DNA of 64,000 nucleotides from Caloenas nicobarica (taxonomy: Eukaryota), in contig NC_088282.1 of NCBI RefSeq assembly GCF_036013445.1, forward strand, positions 133,631 through 197,630, given 5' to 3'. Below the pieces are notes generated by a model that was given only the letters and a program-made list of their open reading frames with translations, was not told the DNA's origin and made no database searches. A program made the translations under genes and the position numbers. Below are positions 193-63,250 of this stretch, in pieces. Position 1 is the first letter of the stretch. Each line of letters opens with the position of its first letter.

Positions 193-256
193 GCCCGACC
201 ACCTCAACAGCCACGTCCGGCAGGTCCATTCCACCGAGAGGCCCTTCAAGTGCGAG
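193..256 (+). CDS. MAZ: MAZ zinc-finger exon (window starts inside the gene). Encodes (R)PDHLNSHVRQVHSTERPFKCE.
   Basis: The translation matches human MAZ SRPDHLNSHVRQVHSTERPFKCEK. Acceptor cag at 190-192, donor GTAC at 257. Confidence 0.8.
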
Positions 257-1185
257 GTACCCACCGCCCCACAGATCTGCCCCATAGATCTGCCCCACGG
301 ATCCCGCCCCACGGGCCCCGCTCGCTGCGTCGCTTCGCGCCCCAAACCGACCCAATTCCGGCCCGTTTTCCCCCAAACCGAGTCCCTTCGCTCTTCCCAC
401 ACCCCATAACCCGCCCCACACGTCCCTGACCCACATATCCCAGCCCCATAGATCCCGACCCCCGTTCTGACCCATAGAACTGACCCAGGGATCCTGTTTG
501 CTGCGTCAACTTCCCACCCCAAATGGACCCAATTTTGACCCGTTTTCCCCCAAACCCGAGTCCCTTTTTGCTTCCTGCACCCCATAACCCGCCCCATAGA
601 TCCCGCCCCACAGCTCCTGTCCATAACGTCCAATTCCTGCCCATTTCCCACTGAAAATGGACCCAATTCTGCCCCATTTTCCCCCAAACCCGAGTCCCTT
701 TTCGCTTCCTGCACCCCATAACCCGCCCCATAGATCCCACCCCATAGATCCTGCCCCACATCAACATCTTTCACACCATTTCCTGCCCCAAACCGACCCA
801 ATTCTGACCCATATTCCCCCAAACCCGCGTCCCCTTTCCCTCCCCGCGCCCCATAACCCGCCCCATAGATCCCACCCCACAGCTCCTGTCCGTGTCGTCA
901 AATTCCCTCCCATTCCCCATTGAAAATGGACCCAAATCCGCTCCGTTTTCCCCCAAACCCGCATCCCCTTTCCCTCCCCACGCCCCCCCACATCCCGCCC
1001 CACACCCAGCCCCATAACCCCCCCGCCGCAACCCCGAAACGCGCCCGTTTCTCCCCAAACCGAGCCCGTTTCTCCCCGAAACGCGCCCGTTTCTCCCCAA
1101 ACCGAGCCCGTTCTCGCTCCCCGCCCCCCCCCCCCAGCGCCCAGCCCCATAACCCAGCCCCATAACCTGCCCCCCCCACCCCAGA
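255..1185. repeat. Tandem array of a C-rich unit of about 130 bp (about 6 copies) in a MAZ intron. Motif CCCCATAACCCGCCCCATAGATCCC.
   Basis: Direct repeats of gacccaattctgccccattttcccccaaacccgagtcc...ccccataacccgccccatagatccc can be seen. Confidence 0.8.
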
Positions 1186-1353
1186 CGTGCGAGGCCGCGT
1201 TCGCCACCAAGGACCGGCTGCGGGCGCACGCCGTGCGGCACGAGGAGAAGGTTCCGTGTCACGTCTGCGGGAAACTGCTCAGCGCCGCCTACATCGGGGA
1301 CCACATGAAGGTGCACGGGGCGCCCGGGCACAGCTGCGAGCTCTGCAGCAAAG
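1185..1353 (+). CDS. MAZ: MAZ C2H2 zinc-finger exon. Encodes TCEAAFATKDRLRAHAVRHEEKVPCHVCGKLLSAAYIGDHMKVHGAPGHSCELCSK.
   Basis: Near-identical to human MAZ KCEAAFATKDRLRAHTVRHEEKVPCHVCGKMLSSAYISDHMKVH. Acceptor ccccag at 1184, donor aaag|gtgtgg at 1354. Exon ends in phase 1. Confidence 0.85.
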
Positions 1354-2275
1354 GTGTGGGGCGGGGTGTGGGGCAGGATCTATGGGGCAGGGGGGCGGGC
1401 GGGGGGTGGGTGCAGGGAGGGAAAAGGGGACGCGGGTTTGGGGGAAAACGGGGCGGAATTGGGGCCGGTTTAGGTGGGAATGGGTGGGAATTTGACGACA
1501 CGGACAGGAGGTGTGGGGCGGGATCTATGGGGCGGGTTGTGGGGTGCGGGGAGGGAAAGGGGACGGGGGTTTGGGGGAAAATGGGGCGGAATTGGGTTGG
1601 ATTTGGGCAGGAAATGGTGTGAAAGAGGTTGATGTGGGGCGGGATCTATGGGGCGGGTTATGGGGTGCGGGGAGGGAAAGGGGACGCGGGTTTGGGGAAA
1701 ATGGGGCGGAATTGGGTCCATTTTAGGTGGGAATGGGTGGGAATTTGACGACACGGACAGGAGGTGTGGGGCGGGATCTATGGGCGGGTTGTGGGGTGCG
1801 GGGAGGGAAAGGGGACGGGGGTTTGGGGGAAAATGGGGCGGAATTGGGTTGGATTGGGGCAGGAAATGGTGTGAAAGAGGTTGATGTGGGGCGGGATCTA
1901 TGGGGCGGGTTATGGGGTGCGGGGAGGGAAAGGGGACGCGGGTTTGGGGGAGAAGGGGGCGGAATTGGGTCCGTTTTAGGTGGAAATGGGTGGGAATTTG
2001 ACGACACGGACAGGAGCTGTGGGGTGGGATGTGGGGCGGGATCTGTGGGGCGGGTTATGGGGTGCGGTTGGGGGGGGAAAAGGGGGCGCGAGTTTGGGGG
2101 AAACCGGGGCGGAATTGGGCCAATTTTCATCGGGAAAGGGGCAGCGATTTGACGTCACAGGCAGGATCCATGGGGCGGGATCTATGGGTTGGGATCTATG
2201 GGGCGGGTTGCGGGCGGGATCTGTGGGGCGCAGATCTATGGGGTGACCCCCCCCTCCCCCCATCCCATCCCACCT
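1354..2275. repeat. Tandem array of a G-rich unit of about 245 bp (about 3.5 copies). It is the reverse complement of the 255-1185 family.
   Basis: gggatctatggggcgggttatggggtgcggggagggaaaggggac... is the reverse complement of the C-rich motif in the preceding intron. Confidence 0.8.
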
Positions 2276-2291
2276 CCTCCCCTCCCCCCAG

Positions 2292-2392
2292 GCGGTTCGT
2301 GCCCCCTGGCGCCCCCCGGCGGCCCCTCCCCCGCGGTGCCCGCGCTGCCCCTGGAGGGGGCGCCGGCGCTCGGCCCCACCCAGCCCTGGTGA
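2292..2392 (+). CDS. MAZ: MAZ terminal coding exon. Encodes ...GGSCPLAPPGGPSPAVPALPLEGAPALGPTQPW and the stop codon.
   Basis: In frame with the previous exon and ends ...QPW-stop, as human MAZ ends SQPW. Acceptor ccccccag at 2291, TGA at 2390-2392. Confidence 0.7.
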
Positions 2393-2760
2393 AGGGGGCG
2401 GGGCCTTGGGGGGGGGTGGGTGGGCGGGGCTTGGAGGGGGCGGGGCCTCACTGGAGGCTCCACCCCCCCCCCCGGTGGGATGGGGGGAGGGGAGGGGGGG
2501 GGGGCGGGGCCTTTTGTACCAATGGGACGAGACGTGACAATAAAACCCGAGAGGCGCCGGCTGAGGCTCCGCCACCGGGGGGAGGGGCTTGGAGGGGGCG
2601 GGGCCTAAAGGGGGTGGGGTTTAAAGGGGCGGGGTCTGGAGGGGGCGGAGTCAAAATGGGGGGGTGGGGTCTAAAGGGGGCGGGGCCTCCAGGGGGCTCT
2701 AAAGGGGGTGGAGTTTAAAGGGGCGGGGCCTAAAGGGGGCGGGGCTTCCTCCAGGCCACG
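2393..2760. repeat. Array of Sp1-type GC-boxes (GGGGCGGGGC, about 12 copies) spanning the MAZ 3' UTR and downstream.
   Basis: Repeated ggggcggggcct / aaagggggtggggtttaaaggggcggggtctggagggggcgg. Confidence 0.7.
2539..2544 (+). terminator. MAZ: AATAAA polyadenylation signal for MAZ.
   Basis: aataaa sits 147 nt downstream of the MAZ stop codon. Confidence 0.5.
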
Positions 2761-3049
2761 CCCACAAGGGGTCGCCATTCCACCCCCCCCAATTCCATGG
2801 AGTTTGACCCCAAAATGTGGGGGGTTTTCCCCAAAATTGTGGGGATTTTGAGCCAAGTTATGGGGCTTTTTGCCCCCCAAATCCTGTTTGATTTTTCCCC
2901 AAATTCCATTGGAGTTTTCCCAAAATTCTCTTGTATTTTTTTTTCCCCATTTTTTCTCCCCAAATCCCCATTTTTTCCCCCCAAATCAGCCTCTCACCCC
3001 CCAAAACCTTCATTTCTATTTTTCTTTTTATTCCCTGGGGGGGGGGTCG

Positions 3050-4104: not shown

Positions 4105-4344
4105 TCACTCGGGGATGTCAATCACCAGCTCGTCGTCCCCGTCCAGGGCGTCGTCCCCGCTGCCCTCCCCCCCCTCCCCCTCCCCCTCCCCCCCCCCGTG
4201 GCTCAGGAGCCTCCGGGGGACGGTGCTGGGGACGGGGGGAGGGGCGGGGGGCGGGGCGGGGGGCGGGGCCAGCGCGGGGGGGGGGAGGGGCCCGGCCTGG
4301 CCACGCCCCGGGGGGGGGAAGGGAAACGGGGGGGTGGGGGGGAC
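4105..4344 (-). CDS. INO80E: INO80E terminal exon. Encodes [20 protein letters not shown]...[45 protein letters not shown] and the stop codon.
   Basis: The C-terminus matches human ...[33 protein letters not shown]-stop. Stop codon (reverse complement TGA) at 4105-4107. Acceptor cccccccccag at 4345-4346. Confidence 0.75.
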   Translation of the reverse strand, partial: [79 protein letters not shown]

Positions 4345-4379
4345 CTGGGGGGGGGGGGGAAATAGGGGGGTCGGGGGGG

Positions 4380-4700
4380 GTCACGTGATGCACTGGGACA
4401 CGGCCCCGCCCCCAGCCCCACAAGTGACCCCCCCACCTCCGGACCCACAAGTGACCCGAAGTGACCCCCAAGTGCCCCGTAACTGCCCCCCCAGCCCCAC
4501 AGATTAACACCCCCAGGCCCGCAAGTGCCCCATAAGTGACCCCATGACCCCCCAGCTGCCCCATAAGTGACCTCATGATCCCCCAGCTGCCCCATAAGTG
4601 ATTTCAGCCCCATATATTGACCCCCAAGTGCCCCATAACTGCCCCCGCAACCCCACAAATTAGCCCCCCCAGGCCCCCAGCTGCCCCATAAGTGCCCCCC
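4380..4700. repeat. CCCCATAAGTGACC-type short tandem repeats.
   Basis: ccccataagtgaccccatgaccccccagctgccccataagtga. The same motif family recurs at 5700-6170 and 19400-20300 (there as its reverse complement). Confidence 0.6.
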
Positions 4701-4729
4701 CCCCCCCCCCCCCAGCGCCCCCCACGGAC

Positions 4730-4849
4730 CTGGGGGCGTCGGCTGCTGCGGCTGCGCCGGGCGGGGCCGGGGCGGGGCCGGGGTGGGCGGGGCCCGTCGG
4801 GCGGGGCCAGAATCTCATTGGGGAACGGGCTGAACGGGGGCGTGGCCAC
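4730..4849 (-). CDS. INO80E: INO80E exon 6. Encodes VATPPFSPFPNEILAPPDGPRPPRPRPGPARRSRSSRRPQ.
   Basis: Matches human [34 protein letters not shown]. Acceptor ccccccccag, donor cag|gtccgt. Phase 0 in and out. Confidence 0.6.
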
Positions 4850-4889
4850 CTGGGGGGGGGGGGCGGGGTCAGCTGGGGACACGCCCCCC

Positions 4890-5210
4890 CCCCCCCCGCT
4901 GCGATTGGCTGGAGAGGGTGGGGGGAGCCCAGACCACGCCCCCTCGCTGGGATTGGCTGGAGAGGGTGGGGGAGCTGAGACCACACCCCCTCACTGGGAT
5001 TGGCTGGGGGAAGAGGGGGCGGAGCCGGGGGGGGGGGGGGAGACCACGCCCCCCTCGCTGCCATTGGTTGAGGGTGAAGGGGGTGGAGCCACGCGGGGGG
5101 GGGGCAGACCACGCCCCCTCACTGGGATTGGTTGGGGGTTGGAGGGGGCGGAGTCACAGGGGGACTGGGACACGCCCCCTCGCTGGGATTGGCTGCGGGT
5201 AAAGGGGGCG
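4890..5210. repeat. Tandem repeat of about 62 bp (about 5 copies). Each unit carries gggattggctgg, an inverted CCAAT box.
   Basis: ccacgccccctcgctgggattggctggagagggtgggggagc repeated inside an INO80E intron. Confidence 0.7.
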
Positions 5211-5227
5211 GGGCCGCGGTCACTCAC

Positions 5228-5279
5228 CATATATGGAGCGGGCGGGGCCGGGAAGGCGGGGGGGGAGGGGCTGCGCTTC
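5228..5279 (-). CDS. INO80E: INO80E exon 5. Encodes (R)KRSPSPPAFPAPPAPYM.
   Basis: Matches human KRKRSPPLGGAPSPSS. Acceptor cccccccag, donor atg|gtgagt. Phase 2 in, phase 0 out. Confidence 0.6.
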
Positions 5280-5299
5280 CTGGGGGGGGGAGGAGGCGG

Positions 5300-5600
5300 G
5301 GTCAGGGGGGCGGGGCCAAGGCGGCAGCCATCTTGGAGCCCCGCCCACCTCCCCGGCGGCCATCTTGGCTGCTGGCAGCGGCCATATTGAAGCCTGGCAG
5401 CCATATTGGAGCCCCGCCCACCTCCCTGGCAGCCATATTGGATGCTGGCGGCGGCCATCTTGAAGCCTGGCGGCCATCTTGGAAGCCTTCCCACGACCCT
5501 GGCGGCCATCTTAGAAGCTGGCGGCGGCCATATTGAAGCCTGGCGGCCATCTTGGAGCCCCGCCCACCACCCCGGCGGCCATCTTGGCCCCGCCCCCCAC
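5300..5600. repeat. Tandem array of about 13 consensus YY1 sites (GGCGGCCATCTTGG and GCCATATTGG variants), unit about 20-24 bp.
   Basis: gcggcagccatcttggagccccgcccacctccccggcggccatcttggctgctggcagcggccatattgaagcctggcagccatattggagcc... It lies in INO80E intron 4. Confidence 0.85.
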
Positions 5601-5667
5601 CTCTTGCCGCCGTCGCTGCCTTTGTTCCCGTCCCCGTCGCTGTCGGACGTCGCCGTCGCCTCCGAAT
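5601..5667 (-). CDS. INO80E: INO80E exon 4. Encodes DSEATATSDSDGDGNKGSDGGK(R).
   Basis: Matches human [21 protein letters not shown]. Acceptor ccccag, donor aagag|gtgggg. Phases agree. Confidence 0.65.
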
Positions 5668-5699
5668 CTGGGGCGGGGAGGAGCCGATGGGGACCCATA

Positions 5700-6170
5700 G
5701 CGACCCCCAAGTCCCCCCCCAGCCCCACAAGTGCCTGAAATTGACCCATAATTGCCCCATAACGACTCCCCGGTGCCCCCCAACTTCCCCATGTTGACCC
5801 CTAAGTGCCCCCAAATGACCCATAAATGCCCCAAAGTGACCCATAAATGCCCCACAGCGACCCCCAAGTTCGCCCGCGGCCCCATAACTACCCCACAATG
5901 TCACCCGGCTGCCCCATACTGATCCCTGAACGACCCATAAATGCCCCAAATTGACCTACACCTGCCCCACAGCGACCCCCAAGTTCCCCCCCGCCCCATA
6001 AGTGCCTGAAACTGACCCATAAGTGCCCCATAGAGAGTCCCCAGTGCCCCCCATTGACCGTCAGCCTCCCCACATTGACCCCCAAGTGCCCCCAAATTGA
6101 CCCATAAATGCCCCAAATTGACCCGTAACTGCCCCATAGCGACCCCCAAGTTCCCCCCCAGCCCCATAAG
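5700..6170. repeat. Short tandem repeats of the CCCATAAGTG / CCCATAAATGCCCCAAAGTGAC type.
   Basis: gacccataaatgccccaaagtgacccataaatgccccacagcgacccccaagtt repeated. Confidence 0.6.
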
Positions 6171-6186
6171 TGTCGCTCCCCATTAC

Positions 6187-6239
6187 CCGTCGTCTCCTCG
6201 TCCACGTTCTCATAGAGCAGCAGCCGGTCCAGCAAATAA
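6187..6239 (-). CDS. INO80E: INO80E exon 3. Encodes (S)YLLDRLLLYENVDEETT.
   Basis: Matches human SFLLDRLLQYENVDED. Acceptor ccccag, donor acgg|gtaatg. Confidence 0.75.
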
Positions 6240-7135
6240 CTGGGGGGAGGGGAGCGGCCGTGAGGGACCCAGGCATCCGGGAGGGACCCAGGCGTTCGGG
6301 GGGGACCCAGGCGTCTGGGAGGGACCCAGGAGTTCGGGGAGGGACCCAGGCGTCCGGGAGGGACCCAGGCATCCGGGAGGGACCCAGGCGTCCGGGGGGA
6401 CCCAGGAGTTCGGGAGGGACCCAGGCGTCCGGGAGGGACCCAGGAGTTCGGGGGGAGACCCAGAAGTCCGGGGGGACCCAGGAGTTCAGGAGGGGACCCA
6501 GGAGTTTGGGAGGGGACCCAGGCGTCCGGGAGGGACCCAGGCGTCCAGGGGGACCCAGGAGTTCGGGAGGGACCCAGGCGTCCGGGAGGGACCCAGGAGT
6601 TCGGGGGGAGACCCAGAAGTCCGGGGGGACCCAGGAGTTCAGGAGGGGACCCAGGAGTTTGGGAGGGGACCCAGGCGTCCGGGAGGGACCCAAGAGTTCG
6701 GGGAGGGACCCAGGCGTCCGGGACGGTCCCAGGCGTCCGGGGGGACCCAGGAGTTCGGGAGGGGACCCAGGAGTTCGGGGAGGGACCCAGGCGTCCGGGG
6801 GAGGGACCCAGGAGTGCGGGAGGGACCCAGGAGTGCGGGGAGGGACCCAGGCGTTCGGGGGAGGGACCCAGGAGTGTGGAGGAGGGACCCAGGCGTCCGG
6901 GACGGTCCCAGGCGTCTGGGAGGGGACCCAGGAGTTTGGGAGGGGACCCAAGAGTCCAGGGAGGGACCCAGGAGTGCGGGAGGGACCCAGGAGTGCGGGA
7001 GGGACCCAGGAGTTCGGGGAGGGACCCAGGAGTCCAGGAGGGGACCCAGGCATTCGGGAGGGACCCAGGAGTTCAGGGAGGGACCCAGGAGTCCGGGAGG
7101 GGACCCAGAGGATGGATTTTGGGGCCGTTTTGAGG
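6240..7135. repeat. 20-bp minisatellite GGGACCCAGGCGTCCGGGAG, about 45 copies.
   Basis: A direct tandem array. The same 20-mer family recurs elsewhere in the window in both orientations. Confidence 0.9.
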
Positions 7136-7146
7136 GATTTTGGGAC

Positions 7147-7217
7147 CTTTTGTCGCGCGAAACCTTCAGGAGTTTGCGCTGGGCCCGACGCAGCTCGTCC
7201 TGGAAACATTCCTGCTC
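7147..7217 (-). CDS. INO80E: INO80E exon 2. Encodes [23 protein letters not shown].
   Basis: Matches human [24 protein letters not shown]. Acceptor ttag and donor aaaag|gtccca on the minus strand. Phases agree with the flanking exons. Confidence 0.8.
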
Positions 7218-7299
7218 CTAATCGAGCAAAAACGGGGGATTTGGGGGAAAAACAGGGAAAAACGTAGCTAGAAATACACAGAGACACCCCCAGGAACCC

Positions 7300-9180: not shown

Positions 9181-9264
9181 GCCCCGTTCGCGCCCGATCC
9201 CGCGCAAGCCCCGCCCCCCCCGCAAGCCCCGCCCCTCCTCCCGGCCCCGCCCCTTCCCGCTCAC

Positions 9265-9720: not shown

Positions 9721-9779
9721 CGGCGGGGGAACGCGATTGGCTGGCGCCGCCGCGAAGCCCCGCCCACCGCGCCATTCAG

Positions 9780-11700: not shown

Positions 11701-11717
11701 AAACGGGGTTTTTCGGG

Positions 11718-52100: not shown

Positions 52101-52116
52101 TGTCCGTGTGTCTCAC

Positions 52117-52185: not shown

Positions 52186-52199
52186 CCTGGGGACGGGGG

Positions 52200-55060: not shown

Positions 55061-55160
55061 GTCGCCCTCTCGCGTCTCCGGGGGTTTTCTTTTATCTTTT
55101 TTTAATCTTTTTGAGGGAAAAAAGAGGCGAAAACTCCTCAAATCGGCGGCGGAGGAGCCG
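55000..55160 (+). other. SRRM2: Putative SRRM2 non-coding exon 1. The transcription start is uncertain.
   Basis: The donor gagccg|gtgagg lies at 55161, downstream of the promoter module. The next exon's acceptor, ccccccgcag at 58078-58080, is 15 nt before the ATG. Confidence 0.3.
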
Positions 55161-55169
55161 GTGAGGACC

Positions 55170-58060
55170 CCGGGGGGGGTTTTGGGTTTTTTTGGGGTTT
55201 TTTTTGGGGGGTTTTTGGGGATAGTTGGGCGTTGAGGCCCGCGCGGTGCGGGGAAAATGGCGGGTTGGGGGGAAAAAGGGCTAAAAAAGGGGTTTTTTTG
55301 GGGAAAAATGGGGTTTTATGAGGAAAAAAGGGGGGGTTATGAGGGAAAAATGGGGGTTTTGTGAGGAAAAGTGGGGGTTTCGTGGGGAAAAATGGGGGGT
55401 TGGGGGTGGGGGGAGGGGAATGGGGGGAAAAAGTGGCTTTTTTGGGGTTTTTTTTGAGGGGAAAAAGGGGGTTTTGGGGGTTTTGTGAGGGGGAAAGGGG
55501 GGGGGAGGGGGAAATGGGGTTTGGGGGAGTTTTGGGGTGAAAAAGTGGGATTTTGGGGGAGATTTGGGGAGAAAATGGGATTTTGGGGGAGATTTGGGGA
55601 GAAAATGGGATTTTGGGGCGAATTTTGAGGGAAAAAGTGGGTTTTGGGGGGAGATTTGAGGGAAAAAAGTGGGTTTTGGGGGGAGAAGGAAAGTTTTTTA
55701 AAGAGGATTTTTGAAGCAAAAAGGGTCTTTTCGTGGGAGGTTTTGAGGAAAAAAAGTGGGTTTTGGGGAAAAATATGAAGGTTTTGGGAGGAAAAAGAGG
55801 TTTTTTGGGGGTGATGAGGGAAAAAGGGCAATTTTGGGGAGTTTTGAGGGAAAAAAGTGGAGTTTTGGGAGGGGAAAAGTGGGAAGTTTTGAGGGAAAAG
55901 CGAATTTTGGGGGGAAAAAAGTGGTTTTGGGGTTTATGAAGGAAAATGTGGGGAGTTGTGAGGAAAAAAGTGGAATTTGGGGGTGAGTTTGAGGGGTAAA
56001 AGTGGCGTTTTGGGGCAGTTCTAAGGAGAAAAAAATGGGGGTTTTGGGAAAAATCGAAGTTTTTGGGGAAAGAAAATCAGGTTTGGGGGAAAAAAAAGAT
56101 GATTTTGGGGGAATTTTGAGGGGAAAAAGTGGTTTTTTGGGGGGTAATGAAGCGGAAAGGGGGTTTTGGGGCACTTTTTGAGGAGAAAAAGCCGTTTTTT
56201 GGGGTTGGAAGAGGCTGGGGGGGGGTGGGGGTGGGCGGGAAAAGGGGCAGTTTGGGGGGAAAAGAGGGAAAATTGGGCAAAATGGGGGAGGGGGGTGGGT
56301 TTGGGGGGAAATGGGGGAAAATTGGGAGGGAAATTGGGGGGAATTGGGAGGGAAATGGGGGAAATTGGGGTGCAAAGGGGGGGAAATTTGGGGGAAATGG
56401 GAGGAAATGGTGGGAATTTGGGGGGGAAATGGGGAAAATTTGGGGGGAAAATGGGGGAAATTGGGGCAAAATGGGGGAAATTGGGATGCAAAGGGGGAAA
56501 TTGGGAGGAAATGGGGAAAATTTGGGGGGAAAATGGGAAATTGGGGTGCAAATGGGGAAATTTGGGGGGGAAATGGGGGAAATTTGGGGGGGAAATGGGG
56601 GAAATTGGGGCAAAATGGGGGAAATTGGGATGCAAAGGGGGGGAAATTGGGAGGGGAAATTGGGAGGAAATGGGGGAAAATTGGGTGCAAATGGAAAATG
56701 GGGGAAATTGGGAGGGAAATGGGGGAAATTGGGGTGCAAAGTGGGGGAAATTTGGGGGAAATGGGAGGAAATGGTGGGAATTTGGGGCAAAATGGGGGAA
56801 ATTGGGAGGCAAAGGGGGGGAAATTGGGGCAAAATGGGGAAAATTTGGGGGGAAATGGGAGAAATTGGGGGGGAAATGGGGGTGCAAGGGGGTGGGAAAG
56901 GGGGAAATGGGGGCACAGGGTGGGCAGAAAAGGGGGGACATGGGGGTGGGACAAGGGGGTGCGGGGCGGGCTGGGGTGTAATAACGGAGGGTTTGGGGGG
57001 CGGGGAATGGGGAGAAATGGGGTGGGAGAAATTGGGGTGCAGGGAGGGGGGGAAAGGGGGAAAATGGGGCTGCAGGGAATGGGGAAAAGGGGGCGCGGGG
57101 GGTGGGAAATTGGGGTGCAGGGGATGGGAGAGGGGGAAAATGGGGGTGCGGGGCGGAGAGAAACTGGGGTGCAGAGGCAGAGAAAAGGGGGTGTGGGGGG
57201 AGAAAAGGGGGACATGGGGGTGCAGGGAAGGGCTGGGGGTGTAATAACGGGGGGTTTGGGGGGTGGGCAAAGGGGTTTTGGGGGGCAGGGGGTTTTGGGG
57301 GGCGGGCAGAGGGGTTTTGGGGGGCCGGGAGGTTTTGGGGGGCAGGCAAAGGGGTTTTGGGGGGCAGGCAAAGGGGTTTTGGGGGGCAGGCAAAGGGGTT
57401 TTGGGGGCCGGGGGATTTTGGGTGGTGGGGGTTTTGGGGGGCAGGCAAAGGGGTTTTGGGGGACTGGGGGTTTTGGGGGGCTGAGGGTTTTGAGGGGCAG
57501 GCAAACGGGTTTTGGGGGGCAGGAGGTTTTGGGGGGCAGGCAAAGGGGGTTTTGGGGGTGGGGGGTTTTGGGTGGTGGGGGTTTTGGGGGCCGGGCAAAG
57601 GGGTTTTGGGGGGCTGAGGGTTTTGAGGGGCAGGCAAAGGGGTTTTGGGGGACTGGGGGTTTTGGGGGGCTGAGGGTTTTGGGGGCAGGAGGTTTTGGGG
57701 GGCAGGCAAAGGGGGTTTTGGGGGTGGGGGGGTTTGGGTGGTGGGGGTTTTGGGGGGCAGGCAAAGGGGTTTTGGGGGGCAGGGGGTTTTGGGGGGCAGG
57801 CAGAGGGGGTTTTGGGGGGGGTTTGGGTGGTGGGGGTTTTGGGGGGCAGGCAAAGAGGGTTTTGGGGGGCAGGCAAAGAGGGTTTTGGGGGGCAGGCAAA
57901 GAGGGTTTTGGGGGGCAGGCAAAGGGGTTTTGGGGGCAGGCAAAGGGGTTTTGGGGGGCAGGGGTTTTGGGGGGCAGGCAAAGGGGTTTTGGGGGGCCGG
58001 GAGGTTTTGGGGGCAGGCAAAGGGGTTTTGGGGGACGAGGGTTCTGGGGGGCGGGGGGTG
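55170..58060. repeat. G-rich satellites of about 2.9 kb filling SRRM2 intron 1. GGGGTTTTGGGG-type, GGGAAATTGGGG-type and 30-bp GGGGCAGGCAAAGGGGTTTTGG units.
   Basis: Direct tandem arrays of G4-prone T4G4-like motifs. Confidence 0.85.
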
Positions 58061-58095: not shown

Positions 58096-58373
58096 ATGTA
58101 CAATGGGATCGGGCTGGCGACGCCGCGGGGCAGCGGCACCAACGGCTACGTCCAGCGCAACCTCTCGGCCCTGCGGGGCAAACGGGAACCCAGAACCGGC
58201 AGCACCGGGACCGGCAGCACCGGAGACCCCCCCGGGGGGGAGCAGGAGGAGCCGCGCAGGCTGGAGGCCGGGGGGCTGCTCCGCAAACCCAACCCCGACA
58301 TCCTCGACCACCAGCGCAAGAGGAAGGTGGAGCTGAAATGCCTGGAGCTGGCCGAGCTCATGGAGGAACAGGG
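58096..58373 (+). CDS. SRRM2: SRRM2 first coding exon. Encodes [35 protein letters not shown]...LLRKPNPDILDHQRKRKVELKCLELAELMEEQ(G).
   Basis: Matches human SRRM2 [28 protein letters not shown]...RPNPDILDHERKRRVELRCLELEEMMEEQG. ATG at 58096-58098, donor cagg|ggtgagc (GT at 58374). Confidence 0.85.
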
Positions 58374-58379
58374 GTGAGC

Positions 58380-59915
58380 GACCCGAAAACGGGCAGAAAC
58401 GGCCCAAAAATGTGCCCAAACGACCCGAAAATGTGCCCAGACGGCCCAGAAATGTGCCTACGTGGCCCAAAAATGTGCCCAGATGGCCCAGAAATGCACC
58501 CAAACAACCCGAAAATGTGACTAGACGGCCCAAAAACGTGACCAGGTGGCCCAAAAATGCGCCCAAAGAGCCCAAAAATGCGCCCAAAGAGCCCAAAAAT
58601 GTGCCCAGGTGGCCCGAAAATGTGCCTAGATGGCCCAGAAATGTGCCTACGTGGCCCAAAAATGTGACTGGACAGCCCAAAAATGTGCCCAAAGAGCCCA
58701 AAAATGTGCCTAGATGGCCCAGAAATGCACCCAAAGAGCCCAAAAATGTGCCCAGGTGCCCCAAAAAATGTGCCCCCCAAAAATCCCCTAAGTCCCCCCA
58801 AAATCCCCCCATATCCCCCCCCCCCAAAATTATTACATATTCCGAACTTTTCCTGTGTCCCCCAACTTCTGGATCCCCAAAACTCCCCCATACGCCCCCA
58901 AAACCCCTCTAGACCCTTCCAGCCCCCCAAAAATCCCCCCGTTCCCCCCCAAAAATTTTTCCAGCACCCCCCAAAAGCTTCATCTGGATCCTTTTCCTGC
59001 ATCCCTGAACTCTCGCACCCCCAAAACTCCCCCGTGTGCCCCAAAACCCCCTGTAGACCCCTCCAGCCCCCCCAAAATCCCCCCAGCACCCCAAAAATTC
59101 CCCCGGTCCCCCCCACATTCCCCCAACACCCCAAAAATCCCCGAAGTCCCCCCCCAAAATTCCCCCCATATTCTCCAAATAAATTACTATGCGTTCCGAA
59201 CTTCTCCCACGTCCCCAAACTTTTTGGCCCCCAAAACTCCCCCGTGTGTCCCCAAAACCCCCTCTAGACCCCCCCCAGCCCCCCAAAAATCCCCCCAGCA
59301 CCCCAAAAATCCCCCTGGTCCTCCCCAAATTCCCCCAACACCCCCAAATTCCCCCCACATCCCCAAAAACTTCACCTGGATCCTCCAAACTTTTCCTGCA
59401 TCCCCCAACTTCTGCGCCCCCAAAACTCCCCTGTGCGCCCCCAAATCCCCACCCTGCACCCCCAAAACCCCCTCTAGACCCCCCCAGCCCCCCCAAAATC
59501 CCCCCAGCCCCCCCAAACTTCCCCCGGTCCCCCCAAATTCCCTCCAGTCCCCCCAAAATCCCCCCATATTCCCCCCGCACTCTCCAAATAAATTACTACA
59601 AGTTCTGAACTTCTCCCGCGTCCCCAAACTTTTGGGCCCCCAAAACTCCCCCGTGCGCCCCCAAAACGCCCTCTAGACCCCCCCAGCCCCCCAAAAATAT
59701 CTCCCTGGTCCCCCCCAAATTCACCCAACACCCCCAAAAACTCCGCCTGGATCCTCCAAACTTTTCCTGCATCCCCCAACTTCTGCGCCCCCAAAACTCC
59801 CCTGTGCGCCCCCAAAACTCGCCCGTGTGCCCCCAAACCGCCTCCCTGCGCCCCCCAAACCCCCCCAGCCCCCCCAAAAATCCCCCCAGCCCCCCAAAAA
59901 CCCCCTTTTTTCCCC
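58380..59915. repeat. C-rich satellites in SRRM2 intron 2. A 30-bp unit CCCAAAAATGTGCCCAGATGGCCCAGAAATGTGC is followed by a unit of about 190 bp, CCCCAAAACTCCCCCGTGTGCCCCCAAAACCCCCTCTAGACCC.
   Basis: Direct tandem arrays. Confidence 0.85.
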
Positions 59916-59924
59916 CCCTCGCAG

Positions 59925-60023
59925 GTACACGGAGAGCGAAATCCAGGAGAAAGTCTCCACCTTCCGCACGATGCTGCTGGAGCGCGACGTGGCGCTGGCC
60001 GACCCGGCCGACCCCAAACCCGC
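59925..60023 (+). CDS. SRRM2: SRRM2 exon. Encodes (G)YTESEIQEKVSTFRTMLLERDVALADPADPKP(A).
   Basis: Matches human YEEQQIQEKVATFRLMLLEKDVNPGGKEETPGQRPA. Acceptor ctcgcag at 59924, donor ccgc|gtgagt. Confidence 0.8.
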
Positions 60024-60111
60024 GTGAGTTCCCCCCAAAAAACCCGCCCCCCGAACCCCCAAAAATCACTGATTACCGCCCCCTTCTTAACGAGCCGCGT
60101 GCCCTCGTTAG

Positions 60112-60267
60112 CGTGACGGAGACTCATCAGCTGGCGGAAGCTAACGAGAAGAAGAACGAGCGGCTGCGGGCGGCGTTCGGTATCAGCGACGCCTACGTGG
60201 ACGGCAGCTCCTTCGACCCCGCTCGCCGCGCCAAGGAGAACCCCCCGGAGCCCCCCGAGCCCCCCAG
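60112..60267 (+). CDS. SRRM2: SRRM2 exon. Encodes (A)VTETHQLAEANEKKNERLRAAFGISDAYVDGSSFDPARRAKENPPEPPEPP(R).
   Basis: Matches human AVTETHQLAELNEKKNERLRAAFGISDSYVDGSSFDPQRRAREAKQPAPEPPKPY. Acceptor cgttag at 60111, donor cccag|gtacgc. Confidence 0.85.
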
Positions 60268-60269
60268 GT

Positions 60270-61390
60270 ACGCATGGGGGGGGTCCCCAAAACTCCCCTG
60301 GACCCCCCAAAATTGTCCTGACCTCCCCAAAATTGTCCTGGACCCCCCAAAATTGTCCCCAGCCCCCCAAACCCACCGGAGTCCCGTCAAGCTCGTGTTA
60401 GTGTCTCCAACCTCCCTGATCCCCCCAAAACACACCTGAGCTCCCCCCAGAGCCCCCCAGGTACCCACAGGGGGAGATTTGGGGGTACGGGGGGGTCCCC
60501 AAAACCCACCTGACCCCCCTAATATTGTCCTGGACCCCCCAAAATTGTCTCGTGTCCCCCGAATGCCCCAGAGTCCCGTCAAGCTCTTGTTAGTGTCTCC
60601 AACCTCCCTGATCCTCCCAGGGAGGATTTGGGGGTACAGGGAGGTCCCCAAAACTCACCTGAGTCCCCCAAAAACCTTTAAGCCCCCCCAGGTACCTCCC
60701 AGGGCGCATTTAGGGGTACGGGGGGGTCCCCAAAAAGTCCCCCGAGCGCCCCCCAGGTGCCCATTGTGTGTGTGTGTGGGGATTTTGGGGTACAGGGGGG
60801 TCCCCCAAAACTCTTAATCCCCCTCAGGGATATATTGGGGTACAGGGGGGTCCCCATTCCCTCCTAGGGATATATTGGGGTGCGGGGGGGGTCCCCAAAC
60901 CCCCATAGGGATATATTGGGGTATGGGGGGGTCCCCAAACCCCCATAGGGATATATTGGGGTACAGAGGGGTCCCCATTCCTCCATAGGGATATATTGGG
61001 GTGCGGGGGGGTCCCCAAACCTCCATAGGGATATATTGGGGTACGGGGGGGTCCCCATTCCCCCATAGGGATATATTGGGGTACGGGGGGGGTCCCTAAA
61101 CCCCCCTAGGGATATATTGGGGTGCGGGGGGGGTCCCCAAACCTCCATAGGAATATATTGGGGTACAGGGGGGTCCCCAAACCTCCATAGGGATATATTG
61201 GGGTACGGGGGGGGTCCCTAAACCCCCATAGGGATATATTGGGGTGCGGGGGGGGTCCCCATTCCCCCATAGGATATATTGGGGTGCGGGGGGGGTCCCC
61301 ATTCCCCCATAGGGATATATTGGGGTACGGGGGGGGGGGTCCCCATCCCCCCTAGGGATATATTGGGGTGCGGGGGGGTCCCCAAAGCCC
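60270..61390. repeat. CCCCAAAATTGTCCTGGACC repeats of about 90 bp, then 30-bp CCATAGGGATATATTGGGGTACGGGGGGGTCC repeats.
   Basis: Direct tandem arrays in SRRM2 intron 4. Confidence 0.85.
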
Positions 61391-61416
61391 CTGACCCCCA
61401 TGTTTTGCGCCCCCAG

Positions 61417-61494
61417 CGCGGGGCGGGAGGACTCGAGCTCCCGGTCGCCGTCGCCCAAGCAGAAAAAGAAGAAAAAGAAGAAGGATCGGGGCAG
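61417..61494 (+). CDS. SRRM2: SRRM2 exon. Encodes (S)AGREDSSSRSPSPKQKKKKKKKDRG(R).
   Basis: Matches human SLVRESSSSRSPTPKQKKKKKKKDRGR. Acceptor cccccag at 61416, donor ggcag|gtgagg. Confidence 0.8.
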
Positions 61495-61619
61495 GTGAGG
61501 GCGATTCGGGGCCAAAAAGGAGCATTTTGGGGCCGGGGGGGGCGGAAAAAGGGGGTTTTGGGGAGGAAAAGGGGGTTTTGGGGGGTGTTTTGGCCCCATG
61601 GAATCTGTGGGTCCCGCAG

Positions 61620-61673
61620 GTCGGCCAGTCGCTCCGGGGAGAGGAAGAAAAGCTCCAAGAAGAAGAAACACAG
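61620..61673 (+). CDS. SRRM2: SRRM2 exon. Encodes (R)SASRSGERKKSSKKKKH(R).
   Basis: Matches human RSESSSPRRERKKSSKKKKHR. Acceptor cccgcag at 61619, donor cacag|gtagga. Confidence 0.8.
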
Positions 61674-61679
61674 GTAGGA

Positions 61680-61910
61680 TCTGTGGGGCACGATCTATGG
61701 GGCGGGATCTATGGGTCAGGATCCATAGGGCAGGTCTATAGGGTGGGATCTGTGGGTCAGGATCCATAGGGTGGGATCTACGGGGTGGGATCTACGGGTC
61801 AGATTTACAGGCGGGATCTATGGGGCGGGATCTATGGGGCAGGATCTATGGGGCAGGATCTATAGGGCAGATTTCTTAGTGGGATCTATGGGGCGGGATC
61901 TATGGGGCCG
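61680..61910. repeat. GGGATCTATGGGGCG 15-bp repeats.
   Basis: gatctgtggggcacgatctatggggcgggatctatgggtcaggatccatagggcag repeated. The motif is shared with the MAZ and TAOK2 intron arrays. Confidence 0.85.
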
Positions 61911-61937
61911 CCCCTCACCCCCATTTCGCCCCCCCAG

Positions 61938-61970
61938 GTCGGAGTCGGAGGCCAAGAAGCGGAAGCACCG
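61938..61970 (+). CDS. SRRM2: SRRM2 micro-exon. Encodes (R)SESEAKKRKH(R).
   Basis: Matches human SESESKKRKHR. Acceptor cccccccag at 61937, donor accg|gtgagg. Confidence 0.75.
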
Positions 61971-62094
61971 GTGAGGGGGGGGGGGTGTCGGATTTTGGGG
62001 GGATTTGGGGGGATTTGGGGGTCGGTGGTGACGTCACTGCTGACGTCACTGCTGACGTCACCGCTGACCTCCCGCTGACGTCATCTCCCCCCAG

Positions 62095-62145
62095 CTCTCC
62101 CAGCCCCAAGAGCAAACATAAGGCCAAGGAGAAGAAGCGCAAGAG
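62095..62145 (+). CDS. SRRM2: SRRM2 exon. Encodes (R)SPSPKSKHKAKEKKRK(R).
   Basis: Matches human SPTPKSKRKSKDKKRKR. Acceptor ccccccag at 62094, donor aagag|gtgaga. Confidence 0.75.
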
Positions 62146-62149
62146 GTGA

Positions 62150-63250
62150 GACCCCCCACTGTCCCCCCTGTGTCCCCCAATGTCCCCCTGTGTCCCCCCA
62201 ATGTCCTCGTTGTGTCCCCCCCAATGTCCCCCAATGTGTCCCCCCCATGTCCCCCTGTGTCCCCCAATGTCCTCGTTGTGTCCCCCCTGTGTCCCCCCCA
62301 CGTTCCCCCATGTCCCCAGTGCGTCCCCATTATGTCCCCCCGTGTCCCCCGCCATGTCCCCCCATGTGTCCTCTCAGTGTCCCCGTTGTGTCCCCCCATG
62401 GTGTCCCCCAGTGTCCCCATTGTGTCTCCCCCATTGTCCCCCATGTCCCCATTGTGTCCCCCCATTGTGTCCCCCCGTGTCCCCATTATGCCCCCACTGT
62501 GTCCCCCCATGTCCCCATTGTCCCCCCACATTGTGCCCCCTCCATGTCCCCATGGTGTGGCCCCCCTATGTCCCCATTGTGGCCCCCCCCATTGTATGTC
62601 CCATGTCCCCATTGCGTCCCCATTGTCTGTCCCCATTGTGTGTCCCCCCCATGTCCCCATTGTGTGTCCCCCCATGTCCCCATTGCCCCCCACATTGTGT
62701 GTCCCCCCATGTCCCCATTGTCCCCCACATTGTGTCCCCCCCATGTCCCCATGGTGTGTCCCTTCATGTCCCCATTGTGTCCCCATTGTGTCCCCCACTG
62801 TGTCCCCCCATGTCCCCATTGTGGCCCCCCCCATTGTATGTCCCATGTCCCCATTGCGTCCCCATTGTCTGTCCCCATGGTGTGTCCCCCCGTGTCCCCA
62901 TTGCCCCCCACATTGTGTGTCCCCCCGTGTCCCCATGGTGTGTCCCCCCATGTCCCCATGGTGTGTCCCCCCGTGTCCCCATTGCCCCCCACATTGTGTC
63001 CCCCCCATGTCCCCATGGTGTGTCCCCCCCATGGTGTGTCCCCCCCATGGTGTGTCCCCCATGTCCCCATTGTCCCCCCGCATTGTCCCCCTGCATTGTC
63101 CCCCCGCATTGTGTGTCCCCCCACGTCCCCATTGTGTGTCCCCCCACGTCCCCATTGCCCCCCACGTTGTGTCCCCCCACATTGTGTCCCCCCATGTCCC
63201 CATGGTGTGTCCCCCCCATTGTGCCCCCCCATTGTCCCCCATGTCCCCCG
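62150..63250. repeat. C-rich minisatellite of about 24 bp, CCCCATTGTGTCCCCCCATGTC.
   Basis: A direct tandem array in SRRM2 intron 8. It creates the long TVSP-rich pseudo-ORFs. Confidence 0.85.

What the first reader, a model, noticed from the sequence alone, without database searches (positions are those of the whole stretch)
255..63250. Nearly every intron and spacer is filled by its own private tandem array, about 45 distinct satellites in 64 kb
Outside about 8 kb of exons and promoters, almost all sequence is tandem repeat, with units from 9 to 250 bp. Each intron carries a different family. A few families recur in both orientations across genes: the GGACGCCTGGGTCCC 20-mer at 6240-7135, 24400-25060 and 50400-51060, and the GGATCTATGGGGC motif at 255-2275, 21700-23100 and 61680-61910. 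Strong strand asymmetry produces very long stop-free frames. This is an unusual genomic architecture in which genes are embedded in satellite DNA.
Basis: seen in the sequence. Interest (0 to 1): 0.7.

Follow-up and report, generated by a model that had tools for sequence, protein, structure and literature searches.

The report
Repeat-filled genes on pigeon dot chromosome
This is a gene-dense piece of a tiny, GC-rich bird microchromosome (Nicobar pigeon) in which almost every intron and spacer has been inflated by tandem copies of its own short sequence; the pattern is real and striking, but it was described in chicken in 2025-26 as "sequence stuttering", so this is a new example rather than a new phenomenon.

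Summary
Tandem Repeats Finder covers 75% of the window, against about 1% in composition-matched shuffles. With self-similarity added, 83% is repeated. There are 70 sizeable arrays in about 52 families, 40 of them unique.

The window is from Caloenas nicobarica. It carries MAZ, INO80E, PAGR1, TAOK2, CDIPT, MFAP4 and SRRM2. MFAP4 lies on chicken dot chromosome 38.

In TAOK2, unexpanded introns are 78-196 bp. Expanded introns are 630-2824 bp and 79-99% array, and the arrays often start 1-6 nt from the splice sites.

Comparison with Columba livia and C. guinea shows in-place amplification. One intron has 4.5 motif copies in Caloenas and about 108 in C. livia. Another has 1 copy against about 57. 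In 16 of 19 intervals the orthologous Columba interval is the best match.

This matches "sequence stuttering" of avian dot chromosomes (Hron et al. 2026). It does not fit genes sitting inside a classical satellite block.

What this adds is modest. Array identity is positionally conserved across pigeons that split roughly 25 My ago, and lineage-specific arrays are the more homogeneous ones. Intraspecific length variation could not be tested.

Interest is low to moderate.

The parts
194..1319 (+). MAZ, last zinc-finger exons (peptide anchors 194-256 and 1188-1319). The gene starts upstream of the window.
   Evidence: Peptides located. Weak zf-C2H2 Pfam hits. The gene name comes from my recall of the human MAZ sequence.
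521..2050 (.). One array family in inverted orientation on both sides of the MAZ exon (521-972 and 1408-2050). The best arms are 722-917 and 1476-1671.
   Evidence: 84% identity over 478 nt, minus orientation; 196-nt arms, 90% complementary.
4108..9348 (-). INO80E. The ATG is at 9348 and the C-terminal exon ends near 4108. TRF covers 77% of the gene.
   Evidence: Peptides. The Pfam INO80E hit is weak. Coverage.
4880..5600 (.). Tandemly multiplied promoter-like modules inside the INO80E gene body. About 7 units carry a CACCC box, a CCAAT box and a GC box. About 11 units carry a YY1-like GGCGGCCATCTTGG.
   Evidence: Sequence read. TRF rows 4891-5215 and 5323-5587.
6258..7108 (-). Array of a 19/39-bp unit (about 44 copies) of the dispersed GGACGCCTGGGTCCC family, in an INO80E intron.
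7509..9172 (.). (CCCCAAATT)-type array with higher-order periods of 42-196 bp, in an INO80E intron.
9390..9760 (-). INO80E 5' flank. A 100-bp unit x2.2 (96% identical) plus a 37-bp unit x3 give at least 8 CCAAT boxes.
10262..11719 (.). Arrays with periods of 167-355 bp in the INO80E-PAGR1 spacer.
11748..14800 (-). PAGR1 (PAXIP1_C domain). The intron array is at 13528-14527. There is an AT-rich island at 12.0-13.5 kb.
   Evidence: Pfam PAXIP1_C, E = 1e-27. Anchors. Composition.
15016..20320 (.). PAGR1-TAOK2 spacer, 86% TRF, with three different arrays. They are a 42-bp unit x44 (15016-16855), a 10/70-bp unit (17023-18904) and a 31-bp unit x30 (19402-20320).
20408..33644 (+). TAOK2. Twelve exons are mapped (20408-31760) with AG/GT splice sites, plus a conserved C-terminal open frame (32802-33644).
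   Evidence: 100% identity to the NCBI Caloenas nicobarica TAO2 protein P0013. C-terminal frame.
20865..24011 (+). Arrays filling TAOK2 introns 3, 5 and 6 (20865-21687, 21982-23086, 23387-24011).
   Evidence: introns 90-99% TRF, with arrays 2-6 nt from most splice sites. One search gives the intron 6 sequence.
24403..25041 (+). TAOK2 intron 8 array of the dispersed GGACGCCTGGGTCCC family.
   Evidence: The same family fills the orthologous C. livia intron.
25179..27947 (+). TAOK2 intron 9. A 31-bp unit x49 (95% homogeneous) has no match in the Columba loci fetched. It is followed by a CCCATTATC-type 17-bp unit x73.
28161..29264 (+). TAOK2 intron 10. An 83-bp G-rich array is followed by a CATTGTCCC array that runs to 1 nt before the acceptor.
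33626..38622 (.). TAOK2-CDIPT spacer arrays (27-bp, 136-bp, 58/145/431-bp and 62-bp units).
40816..45700 (+). CDIPT, 83% TRF. Arrays lie at 41004-42527, 42755-43078 and 44086-45474. The related upstream array is at 39307-40785.
   Evidence: Pfam CDP-OH_P_transf. Anchors..
45860..46410 (-). A 167-bp unit x3.2 array whose first unit is the MFAP4 3'UTR, 40-108 nt after the stop codon.
   Evidence: Copies lie at 46169-46234, 46001-46067 and 45860-45900, about 90% identical.
46450..52186 (-). MFAP4 (fibrinogen C domain), 82% TRF. Arrays lie at 46849-49334, 49628-50064, 50426-51056 and 51279-51990.
   Evidence: Pfam Fibrinogen_C, E = 1e-70..
52227..58052 (.). MFAP4-SRRM2 divergent spacer arrays (31-bp x40, 135-bp x5.4, 21-bp x27, 39-bp x20).
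58096..64000 (+). SRRM2 5' part (cwf21 domain exons 58096-60238, an RS-rich piece at 63600). It runs off the window. Arrays lie at 58397-58754, 60819-61391, 61670-61908 and 62160-63087.
   Evidence: Pfam cwf21, E = 7e-17..

Best explanation
The window is euchromatin of a small, GC-rich microchromosome of the Nicobar pigeon, orthologous to chicken dot chromosome 38. Its introns and spacers have undergone 'sequence stuttering'.

**What happened.** Short resident segments, usually containing G or C runs, were amplified in place into imperfect tandem arrays. Ancestral introns of about 80-200 bp became 0.6-2.8 kb. Exons and the few bases of splice signal stayed intact.

**Dynamics.** Arrays are inherited at their position. 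They then change in copy number and unit structure, are occasionally born anew, and may be lost.

**What is shown.**
- Local origin of the arrays.
- Confinement between splice sites.
- Positional orthology across pigeon genera.
- Large length differences between species.

**What is inferred.** The molecular driver is probably replication slippage or error-prone repair at G-quadruplex/i-motif-prone GC-rich DNA. Unequal exchange or non-crossover gene conversion, on a chromosome that recombines very often, may contribute. These are the mechanisms Hron et al. propose. They are not demonstrated here.
For: **Species and chromosome.**
- TAOK2 exons are 100% identical to NCBI TAO2 of Caloenas nicobarica, on a 775-kb contig.
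- Chicken MFAP4 and SLC5A2 are on chr38 and appear in the Hron et al. Fig. S5 catalogue, which their text describes as the list of exon-stuttering genes. ALDOA is also on chr38.

**Repetitiveness.** TRF covers 75% of the window against 1% in shuffles.

**Confinement to introns.**
- TAOK2 introns 2, 4 and 7 (79, 84 and 196 bp) have no array. Intron 1 (78 bp) has only a 4.5-copy proto-array.
- Seven introns of 630-2824 bp are 79-99% array.
- Arrays begin within 1-6 nt of the junction at 7 of the 14 ends of those seven introns.

**Local origin.**
- The intron 6 unit equals the intron's own polypyrimidine tract plus near-acceptor.
- The MFAP4 3'UTR is the first unit of the downstream array.
- TAOK2 intron 1 is 78 bp with 4.5 copies of CCCCATAACCG in Caloenas. 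It is 1168 bp with about 108 copies in C. livia.
- TAOK2 intron 2 is 79 bp with one GGACCCAGGCGTCCGGG in Caloenas. It is 1235 bp with about 57 copies in C. livia, between conserved flanks.

**Inheritance.** In an all-against-all matrix of 19 inter-exon intervals, the orthologous Columba interval is the best same-strand hit in 16. Chance expectation is about 1.

**Turnover.**
- Interval lengths differ up to 15-fold between genera.
- Arrays without Columba matches are the more homogeneous ones (Spearman -0.50, p = 0.001).

**Other bird orders.** A honeyguide locus and a parrot locus with the same gene order are 81% and 62% TRF, with different introns expanded.

**Structure-prone DNA.** There are 510 canonical G4 motifs against 110 in shuffles, and 431 of them lie in arrays.

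**Not coding.** Periods divisible by 3 are at chance level.
Against: - Intraspecific length variation is one of the three published hallmarks, and it could not be tested.
- Exon stuttering is nearly absent for coding exons. There is one 30-nt copy of the TAOK2 exon 6 start (46 bits against a shuffled maximum of 37).
- A few families are not private. These are the 19-mer at three or more loci, CCCATTRTC and CCCCAAATT. In-place amplification alone does not explain them.
- Generic short cores cause cross-matches. Of 27 control arrays placed outside the nominal orthologous ranges, 13 still get >=50% BLAST coverage from the Columba loci. The 13 include the dispersed 19-mer array 6258-7108 and array 37048-37968, which adjoins an aligned stretch. 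Simple coverage therefore overstates sharing.
- G4 enrichment is correlative.
- Only 41 of 70 arrays carry a canonical G4 motif.
Confidence: 0.85

Rival explanations
1. Assembly artefact. The arrays are mis-assembled, collapsed or chimeric HiFi contigs in a hard-to-sequence GC-rich region.
For: The bCalNic1 assembly is HiFi plus Hi-C only. Huang et al. report that dot-chromosome euchromatin is poorly accessible to HiFi. The contig is only 775 kb. Copy numbers of individual arrays may therefore be wrong.
Against: - Genomes of other species (C. livia, C. guinea, honeyguide, parrot) show the same architecture.
- In pigeons the same families sit at the same positions.
- Exons are intact, collinear and have canonical splice sites.
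- Arrays are imperfect, with structured variants.
- Chicken arrays were verified with raw nanopore reads.
Confidence: 0.03
2. Classical satellite or heterochromatin block in which genes happen to be embedded.
For: Repeat density is very high. A few families recur in both orientations across genes.
Against: - 40 of 52 families occur only once.
- Arrays stop at splice sites.
- No family spans a gene.
- Seeds are present as single copies in unexpanded orthologous introns.
- Chicken dot-chromosome heterochromatin is a separate compartment from the gene-rich euchromatin.
Confidence: 0.04
3. Dispersal of mobile or ectopically copied minisatellites is the main source of the arrays. The source could be a transposable element, eccDNA or ectopic gene conversion.
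For: The 19-nt GGGAC...GTCCC hairpin unit occurs in an INO80E intron, TAOK2 intron 8, an MFAP4 intron and at 53.5 kb. In C. livia it also fills TAOK2 intron 2. The MAZ exon is flanked by inverted copies of one family.
Against: - Most families are private.
- The C. livia intron 2 array grows from a single copy that already sits between conserved flanks in Caloenas.
- No transposable-element-like open reading frame was noticed on reading the stop-free fragments outside the arrays. No formal repeat-library or Pfam screen was run.
Confidence: 0.05
4. The arrays are selected, functional elements, such as regulatory, splicing or chromatin elements. They are not a by-product of instability.
For: Array families are positionally conserved across pigeons that split about 25 My ago. 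Promoter-type modules are multiplied. Arrays abut the splice sites.
Against: - Lengths, unit sizes and even presence differ freely between genera (78 against 1168 bp, 2824 against 971 bp).
- Different introns are expanded in different orders.
- Sequence identity between orthologous arrays is only 67-81%.
- No Rfam family matches.
Confidence: 0.06

Closest known systems
Sequence stuttering of genes on avian dot chromosomes (Hron et al., Genome Biol Evol 2026, PMC12954441)
   Same: - Each intron carries one or several locally expanded imperfect tandem motifs of tens to hundreds of bases.
- Blocks are isolated within introns and the exons are intact.
- Intergenic DNA is also affected.
- The genes are GC-rich and G4-rich.
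- Orthologous introns differ in length between species.
- Chicken MFAP4 on chr38 is in their catalogue.
   Different: - This locus is in a pigeon, not chicken.
- Coding-exon stuttering is almost absent here.
- Array families are positionally conserved between genera that split about 25 My ago. The paper stresses recent, independent expansion.
- Intraspecific variation was not tested here.
Euchromatin of chicken dot chromosomes (Huang et al., PNAS 2023, PMC9974502)
   Same: Small, very GC-rich, gene-dense and repeat-rich chromosomes carrying housekeeping genes that are hard to sequence.
   Different: That paper deals with chromosome-scale features and with the pericentromeric satellites and CNM repeat. 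It does not deal with intron-by-intron private arrays.
Gigantic satellite-filled introns of Drosophila Y-linked fertility genes (Fingerhut and Yamashita 2022, cited by Hron et al.)
   Same: Introns consist largely of tandem repeats that must be transcribed and spliced out.
   Different: According to my own knowledge, those introns are megabase-sized. They are made of simple satellites shared genome-wide, lie in heterochromatin, and occur in a handful of testis-specific genes. Here the arrays are kilobase-sized, private, and affect every gene in euchromatin.
Human-type minisatellites (VNTRs)
   Same: Units of 10-100 bp, GC-rich with strand asymmetry, changing in length by slippage and gene conversion. 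This comparison rests on my own knowledge.
   Different: VNTRs are sporadic, one locus here and there. Here about 80% of all non-exonic DNA over at least 64 kb is such arrays.
Extremely GC-rich gene cluster of gerbils (Hargreaves et al. 2017, as cited)
   Same: Hron et al. state, with data not shown, that a stuttering-like pattern occurs in these GC-rich mammalian genes.
   Different: Not examined here. It is a different lineage.

Membership tests
Sequence stuttering (Hron et al. 2026) | Introns are highly repetitive, holding one or several locally expanded imperfect tandem motifs that TRF detects. | tested here: met
   The seven expanded TAOK2 introns are 79-99% TRF. The nine CDIPT/MFAP4 intervals are 72-97% TRF. 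The whole window is 75% TRF against 1% in shuffles.
Sequence stuttering (Hron et al. 2026) | Repeat blocks are isolated within single introns, do not cross exons, and leave the coding sequence intact. | tested here: met
   Exons are collinear with the annotated protein and have AG/GT borders. Arrays stop 1-35 nt from the junctions in the most fully filled introns, 5, 6, 8, 9 and 10. 40 of 52 families are singletons.
Sequence stuttering (Hron et al. 2026) | The repeated unit has a local origin. | tested here: met
   The seed motif is present as 1-4.5 copies in short Caloenas introns and as 57-108 copies in C. livia, between conserved flanks. The intron 6 unit equals its own acceptor region. The MFAP4 3'UTR is the first unit of the downstream array.
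Sequence stuttering (Hron et al. 2026) | Exon fragments are occasionally involved (exon stuttering). | tested here: inconclusive
   There is one proximal 30-nt copy of the TAOK2 exon 6 start (46.4 bits against a shuffled maximum of 37.4). There are no proximal intronic copies for 22 other coding anchors; the only non-self hit of at least 40 bits was distal and GC-rich. There is 3'UTR-derived stuttering at MFAP4. The paper calls this feature occasional, so its near-absence does not exclude membership.
Sequence stuttering (Hron et al. 2026) | Intron length varies extensively within a species. | not testable with these tools
   No reads or second haplotype were available. Only between-species variation was shown, up to 15-fold.
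Sequence stuttering (Hron et al. 2026) | Location on a dot chromosome. | tested here: met
   Tested by synteny only. Chicken MFAP4 and SLC5A2 are on chr38 and ALDOA is on chr38. The honeyguide has SLC5A2-like, TAOK2 and CDIPT on a 4.95-Mb chromosome. The window has 58% GC and comes from a 775-kb contig. The pigeon chromosome itself was not identified.
Sequence stuttering (Hron et al. 2026) | The euchromatin is devoid of interspersed repeats. | not tested
   No repeat library was available. No transposable-element-like open reading frame was noticed by eye among the stop-free fragments outside arrays.
Classical satellite DNA / heterochromatin | One unit or a few units form long homogeneous arrays that extend across large regions, independent of gene structure. 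| tested here: not met
   There are 52 families in 64 kb. The longest array is 1.9 kb. Arrays are bounded by exons.

The most novel reading that the evidence does not exclude
The arrays are more than short-lived debris of a recent instability. Three points are compatible with this reading.

- The same array family stays in the same intron for at least about 25 My.
- Arrays lie flush against splice sites.
- Whole promoter modules (CCAAT, GC-box and YY1-like) are multiplied.

Under this reading the arrays are long-lived, locus-intrinsic and possibly selected. They might act as G4/R-loop or recombination-hotspot elements, or as buffers of intron length and transcription timing. The dispersed 19-nt GGGAC...GTCCC hairpin unit might be a seed that can move between introns.
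Probability: 0.1. Interest if true: 0.65.

Novelty: new member of a known kind. Interest (0 to 1): 0.3.

Why it matters
- **Generality.** The locus shows that sequence stuttering, described in chicken, operates just as strongly in Columbiformes. At the same locus it also operates in a honeyguide and a parrot.
- **Natural before-and-after pairs.** The pigeon comparison gives clean pairs, such as 1 copy against about 57 copies between conserved flanks. These support in-place amplification.
- **Age of the arrays.** Array identity can outlive about 25 My. This qualifies the published view that the events are recent.
- **Annotation.** The arrays mislead gene annotation. The NCBI TAO2 model ends in exons called inside arrays.
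- **Splicing.** The arrays raise a concrete question, because some introns carry many acceptor-like units. TAOK2 intron 6 holds about 17 copies of a unit carrying a near-acceptor, and C. livia intron 1 holds about 108 CCCCATAG units.

Tried and rejected
1. **Exon-stuttering screen.** BLAST of 12 TAOK2 exons and 22 coding anchors, with shuffled controls, gave only one proximal hit.
2. **Sharing measured as BLAST coverage.** I measured array sharing with Columba as BLAST coverage. A control showed that 13 of 27 arrays placed outside the nominal orthologous ranges also reach 50% coverage, partly through generic cores and the dispersed 19-mer family. I replaced this measure with an all-against-all positional matrix.
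3. **Arrays as stuttered polypyrimidine tracts.** The idea was that arrays should then be pyrimidine-rich on the sense strand. I rejected it. CDIPT, MFAP4 and INO80E arrays are G-rich on the sense strand (with the gene map), and the CCCCATAG motif occurs in both orientations.
4. **Coding repeats.** Rejected, because periods divisible by 3 are at chance level.
5. **Rfam scan.** No family matched.
6. **Relation of the 19/39-mer to the chicken PO41 repeat.** Untestable. The paper I read gives no sequence.
7. **Contig look-ups.** Look-ups for the Caloenas TAO2 protein and the zebra finch TAO2 protein found nothing. The window's own annotation and a zebra finch comparison were therefore not obtained.
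8. **Calidris locus L006.** It is 38% N and was not used.
9. **Cross-order array matches.** Matches between honeyguide and pigeon are suggestive. They may reflect shared simple cores, so I make no claim from them.

Full report
**Observation**

Tandem Repeats Finder reports 560 rows, which cover 75.3% of the 64-kb window. Coverage is 64% at score >=200. Five composition-matched shuffles give 0.6-1.1%. Adding self-BLAST hits raises the repeated fraction to 82-83% and leaves about 11 kb unique.

A non-overlapping selection gives 59 arrays of >=200 bp, with periods of 8-436 bp. At score >=150 there are 70 arrays. Linking arrays that share a >=80-bit hit gives 52 families, of which 40 occur once.

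- GGACGCCTGGGTCCC gives 78 matches against 0.8 expected. It lies at 6264-7094 (-), 24403-25041 (+) and 50426-51055 (+), with a short run at 53.5 kb and single copies at 20706 and 38833.
- GGATCTATGGGGC gives 44 matches against 0.27 expected.

Stop-free frames reach 1120 aa, and 112 are >=200 aa against about 29 in shuffles. Array periods are divisible by three in 24 of 70 cases, which is chance level, so the frames do not indicate coding.

**What the locus is**

Exon-like fragments outside the arrays identify seven genes:

| Gene | Strand | Coordinates | Note |
|---|---|---|---|
| MAZ | + | 194-1319 | partial |
| INO80E | - | 4108-9348 | |
| PAGR1 | - | 11748-14800 | |
| TAOK2 | + | 20408-33644 | |
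| CDIPT | + | 40816-45700 | |
| MFAP4 | - | 46450-52186 | |
| SRRM2 | + | from 58096 | runs off the window |

- Pfam supports PAXIP1_C, CDP-OH_P_transf, Fibrinogen_C and cwf21 clearly. Support for the zinc fingers and INO80E is weak.
- Concatenated TAOK2 kinase exons are 100% identical over their full length to NCBI 'serine/threonine-protein kinase TAO2 [Caloenas nicobarica]', which lies on a 774,814-bp contig.
- That protein maps back onto the window as 13 pieces. Most have plain AG/GT borders, and a few have the junction offset by a base or two.
- The window is therefore Nicobar pigeon, from a PacBio HiFi plus Hi-C assembly.
- In chicken, MFAP4 and SLC5A2 are on dot chromosome 38 and are listed in the Hron et al. 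exon-stuttering catalogue. ALDOA, a human 16p11.2 neighbour of these genes, is also on chr38.

**Anatomy**

The TAOK2 introns fall into two classes.
- Three introns of 79-196 bp have no array. A fourth, of 78 bp, has only a 4.5-copy proto-array.
- Seven introns of 630-2824 bp are 79-99% array.

In the seven expanded introns, the arrays start or end within 1-6 nt of the splice junction at 7 of the 14 ends. After removing arrays, 5-117 bp remain in six of them and 466 bp in intron 11. The expansion therefore accounts for essentially all the extra length.

Intron 6 reads as a donor, then a 52-nt unit x4.5, then a 34-nt sub-unit x12.5, then the acceptor. The unit (TGATGTTTCCGCCCCCCAAG...) is a copy of the intron's own polypyrimidine tract and acceptor (tgatgtttgtgccccccag|). 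Intron 10 ends in (CATTGTCCC)n, which runs into tccccag|.

Gene bodies are 41-83% TRF and spacers 72-86%.

The spacer between the convergent 3' ends of CDIPT and MFAP4 holds a 167-bp unit x3.2 array. Its first unit is the MFAP4 3'UTR, 40-108 nt after the stop codon.

**Related loci**

Two Columba contigs were fetched. L003 from C. livia carries PAGR1 and TAOK2. L002 from C. guinea carries CDIPT and MFAP4. Both are collinear with the window. Exons are 81-98% identical.

The introns tell the story:

| TAOK2 intron | Caloenas | C. livia |
|---|---|---|
| 1 | 78 bp, 4.5 copies of CCCCATAACCG | 1168 bp, about 108 copies, between the same donor and acceptor |
| 2 | 79 bp, one GGACCCAGGCGTCCGGG | 1235 bp, about 57 copies, with both unique flanks conserved |
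| 7 | 196 bp | 1011 bp |
| 9 | 2824 bp | 971 bp |

- Introns 3, 5, 8 and 10, and all nine CDIPT/MFAP4 intervals, carry related arrays in both genera, at different lengths and unit sizes.
- I first measured sharing as BLAST coverage and found it inflated. Of 27 control arrays placed outside the nominal orthologous ranges, 13 also reached 50% coverage. Generic cores and the dispersed 19-mer family contribute to this.
- The stricter test is an all-against-all matrix of the 19 intervals. The orthologous interval is the best same-strand hit in 16 of 19 rows, usually by a wide margin (402 against 69 bits, 490 against 39). The exceptions involve the simple CCCATTRTC family.
- Caloenas belongs to the Indo-Pacific clade, and Columba is taken here to be in the Holarctic clade. 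These clades split about 24.7 Mya (95% CI 18.9-31.3) in Soares et al. 2016.
- Arrays without Columba matches are the more homogeneous ones. An example is the 31-bp x49 array, 95% matches, at 25179-26704. The correlation is Spearman -0.50, p = 0.001. It uses the inflated coverage measure and should be read as indicative only.
- A parrot locus and a honeyguide locus have the same TAOK2-CDIPT(-MFAP4) order and are 62% and 81% TRF. Other introns are expanded there; honeyguide TAOK2 intron 5 is 14 kb.

**Explanation**

The evidence fits in-place tandem amplification of short resident segments of introns and spacers. The arrays are inherited at their position and keep changing in copy number and unit structure.

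This is the phenomenon Hron et al. (2026) named sequence stuttering on avian dot chromosomes:
- Repetitive introns with private, imperfect units of tens to hundreds of bases.
- Blocks confined to introns.
- Intergenic DNA also affected.
- Orthologous introns that differ between species.

The molecular cause is not shown here. Hron et al. suggest repair or replication problems at GC-rich, G4-forming DNA, or meiotic non-crossover conversion. Consistent with that, the window has 510 canonical G4 motifs against 110 in shuffles, 431 of them in arrays. Only 41 of 70 arrays have one. Most units contain G4+ or C4+ runs.

**Rivals**

- *Assembly artefact.* Copy numbers may be imperfect. A wholesale artefact is unlikely, because genomes of other species show the same families at the same positions and the exons are intact.
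- *Classical satellite block.* This fails on family number, array size and exon-bounded limits.
- *Mobile or ectopically copied minisatellites.* These may explain the few dispersed families, but not the private majority.
- *Selection for function.* The free variation in length and presence between genera argues against it, but it is not excluded.

**Comparison and novelty**

The kind is known: preprint 2025, Genome Biol Evol 2026. The window is a new example in a pigeon.

Three points go somewhat beyond the paper:
- Clean single-copy against array pairs between conserved flanks.
- Positional conservation of array families over roughly 25 My, where the paper emphasises recent independent expansion.
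- The near-absence of coding-exon stuttering at this locus.

Intraspecific length variation, one of the three published hallmarks, could not be tested.

**Verdict**

The locus is a known kind, and interest is low to moderate.

Noticed in passing
window 521-2050 (arms 722-917 and 1476-1671): The MAZ exon at about 1188-1400 is flanked by the same array family in inverted orientation. The arms are 196 nt, 90% complementary and 558 nt apart. In the pre-mRNA this could form a long stem that loops out the exon, favouring exon skipping or back-splicing.
   Followed up: partly
window 4880-5600: Promoter-type modules are tandemly multiplied inside the INO80E gene body. About 7 units carry CCACGCCCC, GATTGGCTG (a CCAAT box) and GGGGCGGAGCC. 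A perfect CArG box, CCATATATGG, lies at 5228-5237. About 11 units carry the YY1-like GGCGGCCATCTTGG. Which gene these serve, if any, is unknown.
   Followed up: partly
window 9390-9760: The INO80E 5' flank is itself stuttered. A 100-bp unit x2.2 (96% identical) plus a 37-bp unit x3 give at least 8 CCAAT boxes within about 400 bp upstream of the ATG at 9348 (- strand).
   Followed up: partly
window 31620-31760, 35445-35495 and 33291-33350: The NCBI TAO2 model (P0013, 457 aa) ends in 'QYDQYDQFDQYDQYNQF...SQWGARNG'. These are exons called partly or wholly in TRF-annotated repeat. It omits a conserved TAOK2 C-terminal open frame (32802-33644, containing FFPRAKKTGFRSRLPIPRRG). The arrays mislead automatic annotation.
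   Followed up: partly
whole window (gene order): The gene order is MAZ-INO80E-PAGR1-TAOK2-CDIPT-MFAP4-SRRM2. From my memory of the human map, it lacks the 16p11.2 neighbours PRRT2, MVP, SEZ6L2, ASPHD1, KCTD13, TMEM219, HIRIP3 and DOC2A, and it joins genes from human 17p11 and 16p13.3. This is consistent with the dot-chromosome gene loss reported by Hron et al. I did not search for degenerate remnants of the missing genes.
   Followed up: no
window 12000-13500 and 15016-16855: There are AT-rich islands in an otherwise GC-rich setting. One is a stretch with GC 0.34 and (TA)n at 12313-12481, within and around PAGR1. The other is a 42-bp AT-rich unit x44. Neither has a match in the C. livia locus. 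Their origin is unknown; a transposable-element remnant is possible.
   Followed up: no
window 6258-7108, 24403-25041, 50426-51056, 53484-53538, 20706, 38833; L003 11429-12556 and 19421-20461; L002 8041-8601: The dispersed 19-nt unit contains a 5-bp inverted repeat (GGGAC N6 GTCCC). It recurs in introns of three genes in Caloenas and in both Columba species. Whether it spreads between introns or is a common pre-existing motif is unresolved. A possible relation to the chicken PO41 repeat could not be tested.
   Followed up: partly
L005 5072-7067 and 35098-37464 against window 17393-19978 and 44092-45470: The honeyguide locus carries arrays that match pigeon arrays in comparable places, upstream of TAOK2 and within or after CDIPT, at 66-74% identity over 0.6-1.4 kb. 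This could mean array families older than Neoaves orders, or convergence on the same simple cores.
   Followed up: partly
window 20408-29445 (TAOK2 kinase domain): The pigeon TAOK2 kinase domain is only about 70-73% identical to the TAO2 or TAO2-like proteins of other birds (zebra finch, chicken, honeyguide, parrot) and about 93% to C. livia. This is fast protein evolution for a kinase domain, as reported for GC-rich dot-chromosome genes.
   Followed up: no
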